NCBI RefSeq assembly: GCF_003334315.1
Contig: NZ_QOWR01000027.1
DNA length: 57,499 nt
Direction: 5' to 3' (one strand)
Source: Escherichia coli
GTDB lineage: Bacteria > Pseudomonadota > Gammaproteobacteria > Enterobacterales > Enterobacteriaceae
Shown here piece after piece: positions 53,501 through 56,500 of this stretch. Position 1 is the stretch's first letter, and each line of letters starts with the position of its first letter. The position numbers were made by a program.

Positions 53501-56500
53501 TATCAGACTTAAGATAATATTTTTATTATTAACATTATCGCCTGAAAGCATTAAATTGGTGACAGCCTGCCCTAACACTGCTGATTCTTCTTCTAACAAA
53601 TTACCCGAACTGCGAAAGTAACTTGCTAACGCTTTATCAGTTATTGCATTATGAATTGTAGTATCTTCAAGCATGGTAACCTCTCATCTTACTTATGAAA
53701 TTTTAATGTATTCTGTTTATTTTCTTACCATTGAACATACTTTTATTGTCAGCTGTCGCTGTTCTTCGGTTTGGCCCTCCTGAATCACTATTGCTAAAAT
53801 CACGAATTATGCTGTCAATTAAATCGCGTCGGAAAGCATCTTCCTCAGCCGATTTCATTACGAGTAATTGCTTAATAAGAGTCTGCAATGAAAAATTTAT
53901 CTTCATGCGCAGTATCTGGAGCACCGCCTGGCCAGTAATTTCATATTTTATACGTTCATTATCAGATGTCTTCATAACGACTTCATAGCTAACCTGTTAA
54001 ATAATCAGGCTGTTGCATTATTCAAAAAGCAACCCAATTAGTGCATTATAATGTTTCTGTTCCTCTTCCCCAGTCGCGTGTTCCAGTCGGCAAAGAAGTT
54101 TGGCACAAAGCGACTTTCGACTCAGATTACGTCCATCTTTCAAAATCTCAGTCACAATTTCCCCGAGAGTTTCCTGCTGAGTATGCAAGTTAGCTTTTGC
54201 AAAGTAACGAGTGATTGCTCCCGCAGAATCTAAAGTCACTGAATTTTGATGCATGCTACGCCTCTGTTAAAAATGTTAATCAATGTTAAGTGAAGTAACA
54301 ATAGCAAACTTGTACGAAATATGTGTACAGAATGATAAATTAATTTTTTGCAATTAGTGCTAATGCATATAAAACAATGTGTTATGATAAAACATATTGC
54401 ATCATTTAACTGACAATCTATACAAGATTTTTCGCCAACTAGTGTTCAACTTTTTCCATTTTTTATCAATGTAAAGAAACGGTTATGTTTTGGTATTAAA
54501 AGAAAGACACAAGAAGATATGTCTGTTACCGTCTTACTCTCGCCTCACCCATTACCCTGGATTGTTAATGCTTACCACCCTTATTTATCGTAGCCATATA
54601 CGTGACGACGAACCTGTCAAAAAAATCGAAGAAATGGTTTCGATAGCAAATCGCAGGAACATGCAGTCTGACGTAACAGGGATCTTACTGTTTAATGGTT
54701 CTCATTTTTTCCAGCTTCTGGAAGGTCCGGAAGAACAGGTTAAAATGATATATCGGGCTATATGCCAGGATCCACGGCACTATAATATTGTTGAGCTGCT
54801 GTGCGATTACGCGCCTGCTCGCCGTTTTGGCAAAGCGGGAATGGAATTATTTGATTTGCGCCTGCACGAGCGAGATGACGTTTTACAGGCCGTATTCGAC
54901 AAAGGCACATCAAAATTTCAGCTAACTTATGATGACAGAGCGCTACAATTTTTTCGTACTTTTGTCCTTGCAACCGAACAATCAACCTATTTCGAGATCC
55001 CTGCCGAAGACTCCTGGCTTTTTATCGCTGACGGATCTGATAAAGAACTTGATTCCTGTGCCCTTTCACCAACTATAAACGACCACTTTGCCTTTCATCC
55101 TATTGTCGATCCCTTATCGCGGCGGATAATCGCTTTTGAAGCCATTGTGCAAAAAAATGAAGATAGCCCATCAGCCATAGCGGTTGGGCAGCGTAAAGAC
55201 GGGGAAATCTACACAGCGGATCTCAAAAGTAAGGCGCTTGCATTCACGATGGCACACGCACTTGAGCTCGGTGATAAAATGATTTCAATCAATCTATTAC
55301 CTATGACCCTGGTTAACGAACCTGACGCAGTCTCTTTTTTACTTAATGAAATAAAGGCCAATGCTCTGGTGCCTGAACAAATCATCGTTGAATTTACTGA
55401 AAGTGAAGTCATATCTCGGTTTGATGAGTTTGCCGAAGCGATTAAATCGCTAAAGGCTGCTGGTATCAGTGTAGCAATTGATCATTTTGGCGCAGGTTTT
55501 GCTGGTTTGTTACTCCTGTCACGCTTCCAGCCTGACAGAATTAAAATCAGTCAGGAATTGATTACCAATGTTCATAAAAGTGGGCCACGGCAGGCAATTA
55601 TTCAGGCGATCATAAAATGCTGTACATCACTTGAAATTCAAGTCAGTGCTATGGGCGTGGCAACACCAGAAGAGTGGATGTGGCTTGAATCCGCAGGAAT
55701 TGAGATGTTTCAGGGAGATCTGTTTGCTAAAGCTAAATTGAATGGTATCCCTTCCATAGCGTGGCCAGAGAAAAAATAATTTTCAGCACATTCTTTCACA
55801 TGATTTCAGTAAATCATCGTGAAAATGAATACGTTACGTTTAAATTTAATCCACATTAAAAATAATGTTTCATCCAATTTAGCTGAAATCTTATTTATAC
55901 TTTGTACAATTTTAGCGTATATTGTACAAAGTATTATTGGGTCGTGTACAGGCGACGGAGATTTGTGACCGCAAGGAGGAATTGTGGCTTATTACAGCAT
56001 TGGTGATGTTGCTGAACGTTGCGGGATTAATCCTGTCACTCTCCGGGCCTGGCAACGCCGCTACGGTTTGTTAAAACCACAGCGCAGTGAAGGCGGACAC
56101 CGACTCTTTGATGAAGAAGACATACAACGCATCGAAGAGATCAAGCGTTGGATAAGTAATGGCGTCCCTGTAGGCAAAGTTAAAGCATTACTGGAAACCA
56201 CCAGCCAGGATACGGAAGATGACTGGAGCCGCCTGCAAGAAGAGATGATGTCAATTCTTCGCATGGCTAATCCTGCCAAACTACGCGCGAGAATTATTTC
56301 ACTGGGTCGAGAGTACCCAGTAGATCAATTGATTAATCATGTTTACCTTCCTGTTCGCCAGCGTCTCGTGCTTGATCACAACACCTCCCGCATTATGAGC
56401 AGTATGTTTGACGGCGCATTAATTGAATACGCAGCAACCTCGCTTTTCGAAATGCGCCGTAAGCCCGGTAAAGAAGCCATTCTGATGGCGTGGAATGTTG

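What the first reader, a model, noticed from the sequence alone, without database searches (positions are those of the whole stretch)
55899..55932. TGTACA-containing inverted repeats upstream of bluR and in the ycgZ promoter: candidate BluR operators and bluR autoregulation
A perfect 12-bp inverted repeat (actttgtacaat-N10-attgtacaaagt) with a third gtgtacag copy lies 50-85 bp upstream of bluR. Related cttgtacg / gtgtacag motifs occur at 54309-54330 upstream of ycgZ, the known BluR target. A shared dyad at both promoters suggests BluR also binds its own upstream region.
Basis: inference. Interest (0 to 1): 0.45.

Follow-up and report, generated by a model that had tools for sequence, protein, structure and literature searches.

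The report
Conserved operator in the bluR promoter
The inverted repeat upstream of the E. coli blue-light repressor gene bluR is a pair of TTGTACAA boxes lying on the gene's own promoter and conserved across about twenty enterobacterial genera, so it is most likely the site where BluR shuts off its own transcription; that feedback is plausible but apparently unreported and untested.

Summary
The repeat has perfect 14-nt arms (55897-55910 / 55921-55934). Its core is two copies of the 8-bp palindrome TTGTACAA, 20 nt apart.

The motifs at 54310-54330 coincide with the published BluR DNase I footprint in the ycgZ promoter. The published bluR start site (54 nt upstream of the GTG, about 55930) puts the two boxes at -28/-21 and -8/-1 of the bluR promoter.

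In 80 loci from about 20 genera, 71 of 81 sequences (window included) carry such a box pair 73-90 nt upstream of the bluR-like gene. Only 0.06% of background windows do. Flanking bases are randomised, so the conserved thing is sequence, not a hairpin.

The pair has the architecture of the MlrA box at csgD and the TGTACA-N12-TGTACA sites of Pseudomonas class II LitR repressors. It is also present upstream of the Erwiniaceae genes syntenic with mlrA, so it predates the mlrA/bluR duplication.

Best reading: an operator for negative autoregulation by BluR, relieved by BluF. MlrA is a possible second binder.

Caveats: box spacing differs from the proven ycgZ site (20 versus 13), the third TGTACA is not conserved, and binding is untested. 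This is a new site of a known kind and of moderate interest.

The parts
55897..55934 (.). Perfect inverted repeat (14-nt arms, 10-nt gap). It spans -33 to +5 of the bluR promoter.
   Evidence: pair I3. Position relative to the start site follows from the published TSS, 54 nt upstream of the start codon (PMC3509220).
55902..55909 (.). Distal TTGTACAA box, at -28 to -21 in the promoter spacer just downstream of the -35.
   Evidence: It is invariant in the four divergent E. coli strains and three Citrobacter species aligned. It is conserved at this position upstream of bluR-like genes in about 20 genera.
55922..55929 (.). Proximal TTGTACAA box, at -8 to -1. It overlaps the end of the -10 hexamer and abuts the start site.
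   Evidence: In most other species this box coincides with a predicted -35 hexamer.
55945..55950 (.). Third TGTACA, at +16 to +21. It is not conserved and is probably incidental or accessory.
   Evidence: It reads TGTAGA in E. coli 95-3322 and AH21B066 and is absent in Citrobacter.
55894..55923 (+). bluR sigma-70 core promoter: -35 TTTATA (55894-55899), 18-nt spacer, -10 TATATT (55918-55923), start site at about 55930.
   Evidence: The consensus scan found TTTATA-18-TATATT. The TSS is 54 nt upstream of the start codon by primer extension (PMC3509220). Assigning these hexamers to that TSS is my inference. Another study predicted a different promoter further upstream in the same spacer, TTTAAA-16-AATAAT (PMC3946193).
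55984..56715 (+). bluR (ycgE) coding sequence, GTG start, 243 aa: MerR_1 HTH + MlrA_helical + MlrA_C.
   Evidence: RefSeq annotation of the same gene in other E. coli genomes.
54310..54330 (-). Known BluR operator in the ycgZ promoter: two boxes 13 nt apart (TTGTACGA 54310-54317, GTGTACAG 54323-54330 on the + strand). They overlap the -35 and the spacer of PycgZ.
   Evidence: Published DNase I footprint, EMSA and lacZ mutant analysis (PMC3509220). The arrangement is conserved in the bluF-linked loci.
54568..55779 (+). bluF (ycgF), encoding the BLUF-EAL anti-repressor of BluR. It ends 118 nt before the repeat.
   Evidence: PMC3509220.
54018..54254 (-). ycgZ, first gene of the BluR-repressed ycgZ-ymgA-ariR-ymgC operon.
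   Evidence: PMC3509220.

Best explanation
The repeat is an operator of the MlrA/BluR family: two TTGTACAA recognition boxes laid over the core promoter of bluR (distal box -28/-21, proximal box -8/-1). BluR bound there would exclude RNA polymerase and hold its own synthesis at a low, self-limiting level. Light-activated BluF strips BluR from DNA at the ycgZ promoter, and the same release here would raise bluR transcription and help reset the switch.

Shown: the boxes, their conservation, their position on the published promoter, and that this box type is what BluR and MlrA recognise elsewhere.

Inferred: that BluR binds this site, that the effect is repression, and that BluF relieves it.

The element is older than bluR. 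It sits in the same place upstream of the Erwiniaceae genes syntenic with mlrA, so bluR probably inherited it when mlrA was duplicated.
For: 1. The proven BluR site at PycgZ is built from the same GTACA/TGTAC boxes. BluR also shifts the csgD promoter, whose MlrA box has two boxes 18 nt apart (PMC3509220; sequence TTGTGCAA-N10-ATGTACAA).
2. The published bluR TSS places the pair across the spacer, the -10 and +1.
3. Seventy-one of 81 loci score 14/16 or better for a box pair 73-90 nt upstream of the bluR-like start codon. Among 17,115 background windows the rate is 0.06%, and none reaches 15.
4. Box positions carry 1.4-2.0 bits, while the flanks 6-12 nt away carry less than 0.2 bits. Unconstrained sequence has therefore been randomised and shared ancestry alone does not explain the boxes.
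5. Between E. coli and Citrobacter the boxes are the longest invariant blocks of an otherwise poorly alignable spacer.
6. Within E. coli, the 42-bp dyad segment is identical in 4,595 records, against 2,825 and 3,483 for the two flanking 42-bp segments.
7. The only feature common to all contexts is the downstream regulator gene. Enterobacteriaceae loci have bluF upstream. Erwiniaceae loci have a divergent XRE-cupin gene upstream and yohO/yehWX downstream.
8. In the Enterobacter cloacae complex the bluR-upstream pair has the 13-nt spacing of the PycgZ BluR site.
9. There is a precedent for repression by this family from an operator over -10/-35: Salmonella orf319 with MlrA/MlrB (bioRxiv 10.1101/2021.03.09.434593). 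There is also one for related repressors: Pseudomonas class II LitR binds TGTACA-N12-TGTACA over a promoter and is released by a LOV photoreceptor, and pplR1 is itself light-induced (PMC9758184).
10. BluR overproduction is toxic (PMC3509220), which gives a rationale for self-limitation.
Against: - No direct evidence exists. I found no footprint, EMSA, ChIP or reporter result for the bluR promoter. The 2009 Genes Dev paper that used bluR::lacZ fusions is not in the library. The one genome-wide autoregulation screen I found lost its bluR guide (PMC10505187).
- Spacing is 20 nt here against 13 at the only proven high-affinity BluR site, a difference of about half a helical turn. BluR bound the 18-spaced csgD site only weakly.
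- MlrA has the same recognition helix and could be the real binder.
- A few bluF-linked loci lack the pair (L020, L024, L054), so it is dispensable in some lineages.
- The promoter assignment rests on a single primer-extension result. Another study predicted a different promoter further upstream in the same spacer (PMC3946193).
Confidence: 0.6

Rival explanations
1. The operator is real, but in E. coli it is mainly bound by the paralogue MlrA. This would be cross-regulation: MlrA represses bluR and so links the curli activator to the Ymg/Rcs branch.
For: The box pair is closer in spacing and layout to the MlrA box at csgD (18 nt; TTGTGCAA-N10-ATGTACAA) than to the BluR site at PycgZ (13 nt). 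The same pair lies upstream of the Erwiniaceae genes syntenic with mlrA. MlrA and BluR have an identical recognition helix. In Salmonella, MlrA represses orf319 from an operator over the core promoter.
Against: The pair follows the bluR-like gene, not mlrA. The two Enterobacteriaceae mlrA loci examined have lost it. The E. cloacae complex carries a PycgZ-like 13-nt version at bluR. In the Erwiniaceae loci the downstream gene is the natural candidate, which points to self-regulation. I did not check whether those genomes hold other family members, and Pantoea coffeiphila has two (L030 and L042). BluR does bind an 18-spaced site. The two readings are not exclusive.
Confidence: 0.17
2. The pair is an inherited relic. 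It was an ancestral autoregulatory site that is still sequence-conserved, but in E. coli it no longer has a measurable regulatory effect, or it serves only as promoter sequence (the proximal box as part of -10/+1).
For: E. coli and Citrobacter have lost both the A-rich spacer and the downstream TAnnnT element that accompany the boxes elsewhere. The E. coli start site has moved relative to the boxes. Some lineages have lost the pair altogether.
Against: Both 8-bp boxes are perfect in E. coli. They are invariant in the divergent strains examined, and the segment is the least polymorphic part of the spacer in more than 4,500 genomes. A relic would be expected to decay, as the E. coli mlrA upstream region has.
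Confidence: 0.08
3. The repeat acts as RNA: a hairpin that ends or stabilises bluF transcripts reading through into the spacer.
For: The RNA would fold into a 14-bp stem of -16.9 kcal/mol (z = -3.6 against shuffles) 118 nt after the bluF stop codon.
Against: - There is no U tract, and no terminator-like site was found. There is no Rfam match.
- The bluR start site lies inside the 3' arm, so bluR mRNA cannot form the hairpin.
- Across species the box sequence is conserved, not the pairing. Seven of the eight flank or inner position pairs tested pair no more often than shuffled controls; only -1/27 does.
- The distance between the boxes varies from 13 to 21 nt.
- The Erwiniaceae loci examined have a divergent gene upstream, so there is nothing to terminate.
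Confidence: 0.02
4. The site is bound by an unrelated factor, for example H-NS or SrsR, both reported at this spacer.
For: The spacer is AT-rich and listed as H-NS-associated (PMC3946193). A SrsR genomic SELEX peak maps to the bluF-bluR spacer, and SrsR affects bluR mRNA (PMC9181523).
Against: The proposed SrsR box GCAGGTTTTGC is at 55492-55502 inside bluF, about 400 nt away. H-NS does not explain two invariant 8-bp palindromes at a fixed distance from the gene across genera. From my own knowledge, the only E. coli factors reported to recognise TGTACA-type boxes are MlrA and BluR.
Confidence: 0.08

Closest known systems
MlrA box upstream of csgD (Ogasawara et al. 2010, as quoted in PMC3509220 and PMC9662190)
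   Same: Two TTGTACAA-like boxes in dyad symmetry separated by a long spacer: K-12 csgD has AAAATTGTGCA-ataaaaaccaaa-TGTACAACTTT. The A-rich spacer beside the distal box matches the cross-species consensus of the bluR/mlrA-upstream pair. BluR binds this site weakly.
   Different: Boxes are 18 nt apart at csgD, against 20 in E. coli bluR and 19 in most species. The csgD site lies about 100 bp upstream of the promoter and activates. The bluR site lies on the core promoter, and its E. coli boxes are perfect (16/16 against 14/16).
BluR operator in the ycgZ promoter (Tschowri et al. 2012, PMC3509220)
   Same: It has the same GTACA/TGTAC recognition boxes, overlaps core promoter elements (-35 and spacer) and mediates repression. 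It lies 1.6 kb away in the same gene cluster.
   Different: Boxes are 13 nt apart, conserved across genera, against 20. The boxes are imperfect (13/16). That promoter is sigma-S dependent.
Class II LitR/CarH-family repressors of Pseudomonas (PplR1, PmlR2) and their TGTACA-N12-TGTACA sites (PMC9758184)
   Same: The hexamer pair is the same. The sites overlap the target promoter, and the repressor is released by direct contact with a blue-light photoreceptor that acts as an anti-repressor. The regulator gene pplR1 is itself light-induced. The BluR model and sequence match CarH/LitR best among solved structures.
   Different: The partner photoreceptor is a short LOV protein, not a BLUF-EAL protein. 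Class II LitR keeps only the helical bundle, whereas the BluR model also has an alpha/beta domain. N12 against N14. The source paper lists BluR as a separate type of light-linked MerR regulator.
MlrA/MlrB operator at the Salmonella orf319 promoter (bioRxiv 10.1101/2021.03.09.434593)
   Same: An MlrA-type operator overlapping -10 and -35, with repression by MlrA-family proteins.
   Different: The target is the neighbouring gene, not the regulator's own gene. Those authors predicted the site by motif scan, and I did not inspect its sequence.
Canonical MerR-type operators (MerR, CueR, SoxR, BmrR)
   Same: The N-terminal winged helix-turn-helix is of MerR type.
   Different: Canonical sites are compact dyads centred in an over-long 19-20-bp spacer and work by DNA distortion. 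Here the dyad centre is at about -14.5 and the half-sites are about 20 bp apart. The protein has a CarH-like C-terminal part rather than the short coiled-coil effector domain.

Membership tests
MlrA/BluR-family operator (MlrA box) | Two TGTACA-type hexamers in dyad symmetry | tested here: met
   TTGTACAA at 55902 and 55922, 16 of 16 matches.
MlrA/BluR-family operator (MlrA box) | 12 nt between the hexamers, as at csgD | tested here: not met
   N14 in E. coli. Across species N13 is the commonest, with a range of N7 to N15. The csgD site is N12.
MlrA/BluR-family operator (MlrA box) | Bound by MlrA or BluR protein | not testable with these tools
   No published binding data for this fragment were found.
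BluR operator as defined at PycgZ | GTACA...GTACA / TGTAC...GTACA motifs inside the protected region | tested here: met
   The motif is present at both promoters; the published description is.
BluR operator as defined at PycgZ | Boxes 13 nt apart (start to start) | tested here: not met
   20 nt at bluR in E. coli. The 13-nt form occurs at bluR only in the E. cloacae complex and one Kosakonia locus. 12-14 nt, mostly 13, is conserved at PycgZ.
Negative autoregulation by promoter occlusion | The operator overlaps the regulator's own -35/-10/+1 | tested here: met
   The boxes are at -28/-21 and -8/-1 relative to the published TSS (coordinates). This depends on one primer-extension result.
Negative autoregulation by promoter occlusion | Promoter activity rises when the regulator is removed | not testable with these tools
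   The CRISPRi screen that tested autoregulation genome-wide lost the bluR guide.
Conserved cis-regulatory element (phylogenetic footprint) | Sequence and position are conserved beyond what neutral drift leaves | tested here: met
   71 of 81 loci against 0.06% of background windows. Boxes carry 1.4-2.0 bits and flanks less than 0.2 bits. The position is fixed at -73 to -90.
Intrinsic terminator or structured RNA | GC-rich stem followed by a U tract, or covarying base pairs | tested here: not met
   No terminator-like site, no Rfam match, no covariation.
Canonical MerR-type promoter | Dyad centred within a 19-20-bp -35/-10 spacer | tested here: not met
   The spacer is 17-18 bp and the dyad centre is at about -14.5, reaching +1.
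LitR/CarH family (protein side) | MerR-type DNA-binding domain followed by a helical bundle and a B12-binding-like alpha/beta domain | tested here: inconclusive
   The best full-length PDB matches of the BluR model are CarH chains (E 5e-10, TM 0.43-0.51). The B12-binding domains of 8jbs and 3whp also match. The model is of moderate quality (pLDDT 82). The cobalamin-binding motif was not examined.

The most novel reading that the evidence does not exclude
BluR and MlrA are B12-independent descendants of the CarH/LitR photoregulator family. They keep that family's TGTACA-N12-14-TGTACA operator and its habit of repressing its own promoter. On this reading, the E. coli BluF-BluR circuit and the Pseudomonas LOV-LitR circuit are two versions of one ancient design (a photoreceptor anti-repressor plus a self-repressing LitR-like protein), and the bluR operator is a direct survivor of the ancestral autoregulatory site that E. 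coli mlrA has since lost.
Probability: 0.4. Interest if true: 0.55.

Novelty: new member of a known kind. Interest (0 to 1): 0.42.

Why it matters
BluR is the output switch of the only characterised blue-light pathway of E. coli. It controls the Ymg/Rcs branch that tunes curli, colanic acid and OmpF, and its overproduction is toxic. A self-repressing promoter would set BluR dosage. It would also predict that light and cold induce bluR itself, giving adaptation or reset, and it would add a feedback loop missing from current circuit diagrams.

The comparative result also gives a cross-species consensus for the MlrA/BluR box pair (aagTTGTACAataAAAAAa-N3-TTGTACAA), which can be used to search for further targets. 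It shows that the site predates the mlrA/bluR duplication, which supports the published idea that BluR arose as a duplicate of MlrA. The test is cheap: one EMSA and one lacZ fusion.

Tried and rejected
- RNA element. Folding gave a stable hairpin. There is no U tract, no Rfam match and no covariation of flanking positions in 52 sites, and the mapped start site lies inside the 3' arm. Rejected.
- Chance repeat in AT-rich DNA. Single TGTACA is not enriched, but the pair is and it is conserved across genera. Rejected.
- SrsR as the binder. Its proposed box is inside bluF at 55492-55502. Rejected for this repeat.
- Third TGTACA as part of the operator. It is polymorphic in E. coli and absent in Citrobacter. 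Set aside.
- Canonical MerR spacer-distortion mechanism. The geometry does not fit.
- Literature searches for bluR or mlrA autoregulation, ChIP, DAP-seq or SELEX data on BluR found nothing on the bluR promoter beyond the TSS. The key 2009 Genes Dev paper is not held. A full-text search for TTGTACAA returned only cloning primers.
- Autoregulation of E. coli mlrA itself. Its upstream region keeps at most one degenerate box. This rests on only two loci, E. coli K-12 and Enterobacter MGH24.
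Full report
WHAT IS THERE

The end of the window is the E. coli ymgC-ariR-ymgA-ycgZ (minus strand) / bluF-bluR (plus strand) cluster. bluF runs 54568-55779, and bluR starts with GTG at 55984 and encodes 243 aa.

In the 204-nt bluF-bluR spacer, the repeat finder reports a perfect inverted repeat with 14-nt arms: 55897-55910 and 55921-55934, 10 nt apart. Its core is the 8-bp palindrome TTGTACAA, present twice 20 nt apart (55902, 55922), so the pair reads as both a direct and an inverted repeat. A third TGTACA follows at 55945.

IS IT MORE THAN CHANCE?

The hexamer alone is not enriched in the window (14 found, 11 expected). The paired pattern TGTACA-N10-16-TGTACA occurs only here, twice, against 0.01 expected.

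With a two-box score, only three places in 57.5 kb reach 13 of 16: the bluR pair (16/16), the proximal box with the third copy (14/16), and 54310-54330 in the ycgZ promoter (13/16).

WHAT IS ALREADY KNOWN

Tschowri, Lindenberg and Hengge (2012, PMC3509220) mapped the 5' ends of bluR, bluF and ycgZ to 54, 30 and 36 nt upstream of their start codons. They concluded that bluR has its own sigma-70 promoter.

They footprinted BluR on the ycgZ promoter and described the protected site as GTACA...GTACA overlapping TGTAC...GTACA, covering the -35 and the spacer. Point mutations there abolished binding and repression. That is the motif pair at 54310-54330.

They also quote the MlrA box at csgD and show that BluR shifts the csgD promoter weakly. 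The paper says nothing about the bluR promoter sequence or autoregulation. No other paper I could search does either. The 2009 Genes Dev paper with the bluR reporter fusions is not held.

POSITION ON THE PROMOTER

A start site 54 nt upstream of the GTG is about 55930. The consensus scan finds TTTATA-18-TATATT at 55894-55923, which fits that start. This puts the distal box at -28/-21, the proximal box at -8/-1, and the whole repeat at -33 to +5. A protein on either box would collide with RNA polymerase. The hexamer assignment is my inference; the start site is published.

COMPARATIVE EVIDENCE

I collected BluR relatives, aligned 18 of them and fetched 80 loci from one-genome-per-species contigs. 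The upstream sequences show the same thing almost everywhere: two TTGTACA(A) boxes about 60 and 80 nt before the start codon.

- Frequency. 71 of 81 sequences (window included) score 14/16 or better within 130 nt upstream. Among 17,115 random 130-nt windows from the same loci the rate is 0.06%, and none reaches 15.
- Spacing. Box spacing is 19 nt in 46 loci, 18 in 6, 20 in 4 (E. coli among them), and 13 in 11 loci (the Enterobacter cloacae complex and one Kosakonia locus).
- Information content. In 52 sites with 19-nt spacing, box positions carry 1.4-2.0 bits and positions 6-12 nt outside carry less than 0.2 bits. Neutral sequence has therefore been randomised while the boxes have not.
- Consensus. 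aagTTGTACAataAAAAAa-N3-TTGTACAA.
- E. coli against Citrobacter. The boxes are the longest invariant blocks of a spacer that otherwise barely aligns. The third TGTACA is polymorphic within E. coli and absent in Citrobacter.
- Within E. coli. The 42-bp segment holding the pair is identical in 4,595 records, against 2,825 and 3,483 for the flanking 42-bp segments. Megablast needs a 28-nt exact word, so these counts are approximate.

TWO GENE CONTEXTS

Enterobacteriaceae loci carry the whole ycgZ-(ymgA)-ariR / bluF-bluR module.

Erwiniaceae loci (Pantoea, Erwinia, Mixta) have no bluF or ycgZ. Their gene is followed by yohO and yehW-yehX, exactly as E. coli mlrA is. It is preceded by a divergent XRE-cupin gene in the two loci examined.

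These genes are therefore positional orthologues of mlrA, although they are closer in sequence to BluR (62-68%) than to E. coli MlrA (52-57%). They carry the box pair too. The pair therefore predates the mlrA/bluR duplication and travelled with the gene.

The two Enterobacteriaceae mlrA loci I could look at (E. coli K-12 and Enterobacter MGH24) retain only one box-like element at the corresponding position. Since the regulator gene is the only thing common to all contexts, self-regulation is the simplest reading.

WHICH FAMILY OF SITES?

The K-12 csgD MlrA box reads AAAATTGTGCA-ataaaaaccaaa-TGTACAACTTT. It has the same two boxes, 18 nt apart, with the same A-rich spacer next to the distal box as in the cross-species consensus.

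The proven BluR site at PycgZ is different. Its boxes are 12-14 nt apart, mostly 13, and that spacing is conserved in the bluF-linked loci. So the two promoters share the recognition box, not the dyad.

The E. cloacae complex is informative because its bluR-upstream pair has the 13-nt, PycgZ-like spacing.

Pseudomonas class II LitR repressors bind TGTACA-N12-TGTACA over their target promoter. They are released by a LOV photoreceptor acting as an anti-repressor, and pplR1 is itself light-induced (PMC9758184).

In Salmonella an MlrA-like operator over the -10/-35 of orf319 mediates repression by MlrA and MlrB.

THE PROTEIN

BluR is MerR_1 HTH + MlrA_helical + MlrA_C. By sequence its DNA-binding domain is closest to CarH/LitR among solved structures. 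An AlphaFold model (pLDDT 82) matches full-length Thermus CarH best, including the DNA-bound tetramer 5c8e, and also matches isolated B12-binding domains.

This does not prove oligomeric state. It does offer a way out of the spacing puzzle. From my own knowledge, CarH positions its DNA-binding domains through oligomerisation of the C-terminal part rather than through a rigid MerR coiled coil. Different box spacings are then conceivable.

ALTERNATIVES

- RNA hairpin. One would form (-16.9 kcal/mol). There is no U tract, no Rfam family and no covariation. The bluR start site lies in its 3' arm, and the Erwiniaceae loci examined have no upstream gene to terminate.
- SrsR. It has a SELEX peak in this spacer, but its proposed box is inside bluF at 55492-55502.
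- MlrA. It remains a serious candidate as an additional or alternative binder, because its recognition helix is identical to BluR's.
- Functionless relic. This is unlikely given two perfect boxes and low polymorphism.

VERDICT

The ycgZ part restates a known BluR operator. The bluR part is a well-supported, apparently unreported operator of the MlrA/BluR type lying on the bluR core promoter. It most likely mediates negative autoregulation by BluR, relieved by BluF (confidence about 0.6). MlrA cross-regulation is the main rival.

It is a new site of a known kind. Its interest is moderate, raised somewhat by its deep conservation and the link to LitR/CarH-type light regulators.

Noticed in passing
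window 55984-56715 (BluR protein): The BluR model (pLDDT 82) matches full-length Thermus CarH, including the DNA-bound tetramer 5c8e, and isolated B12-binding domains better than any canonical MerR protein. By sequence the DNA-binding domain is also closest to CarH/LitR. E. coli's blue-light repressor may be a cobalamin-independent relative of the B12 photoreceptor family. I did not examine the cobalamin-binding motif.
   Followed up: partly
L014-L019, L021-L023, L025, L028-L030, L032, L036, L037, L040, L041, L046, L050, L051, L063, L066, L067 (match at 4001 in most): Erwiniaceae genes syntenic with E. coli mlrA (yohO and yehW/yehX downstream) are more similar to BluR (62-68%) than to E. coli MlrA (52-57%). 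They carry the TTGTACAA pair upstream. E. coli MlrA looks like the faster-diverging copy.
   Followed up: partly
L081 4784-4792 (E. coli K-12 mlrA upstream); L080 about -103 from the start codon: The mlrA upstream regions keep a single box-like element (ATGCACAA in K-12, TTGTGCAA in Enterobacter MGH24) followed by an A-run, at roughly the position of the distal box in other species. This looks like a decayed ancestral dyad. It rests on two loci only.
   Followed up: partly
L001-L077, ycgZ promoters; window 54270-54330: In most bluF-linked loci a third box-like TTGTATAA lies about 19 nt downstream of the second BluR box of PycgZ and coincides with the likely -10 (TATAAC). E. coli has TTGTTACT there. 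Box 2 plus this element would make a 19-spaced pair like the one at bluR.
   Followed up: no
19-spaced sites in 52 loci, 21-28 nt after the start of the proximal box: A conserved GTTAnnnT (T 43/52, A 41/52, T 42/52) lies 17 nt downstream of the proximal box. It suggests that in most species the proximal box doubles as the -35 of the regulator's promoter. E. coli and Citrobacter lack it, and the E. coli start site is about 25 nt further upstream relative to the boxes.
   Followed up: partly
window 55954-55960, and -30/-25 from the start codon in 23 other loci: A short 5'-UTR motif, GACGGAG in E. coli and Citrobacter and GGA(C/A)G(T/G) elsewhere, recurs at a fixed distance from the bluR start codon in the window and 23 loci (five further pattern hits at -7/-8 lie in the ribosome-binding region and are not counted). 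Its function is unknown.
   Followed up: no
window 57050-57499: An IS1 family transposase ORF lies at 57062-57439 on the minus strand (NF033558, E 1.5e-36) and the element runs off the window end. A 63-aa ORF at 56936-57127 appears to be cut by it. From memory this is the start of ycgX, which I did not verify.
   Followed up: partly
window 55492-55502: The published SrsR (YgfI) box assigned to the bluF-bluR spacer peak, GCAGGTTTTGC, actually lies inside the bluF coding sequence, about 490 nt upstream of the bluR start codon.
   Followed up: yes
L020, L024 (Pseudescherichia vulneris, Escherichia sp. ESNIH1): These loci have no box pair and only about 65 nt between bluF and bluR. This suggests that bluR is co-transcribed with bluF there and has lost its own promoter and operator.
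   Followed up: no
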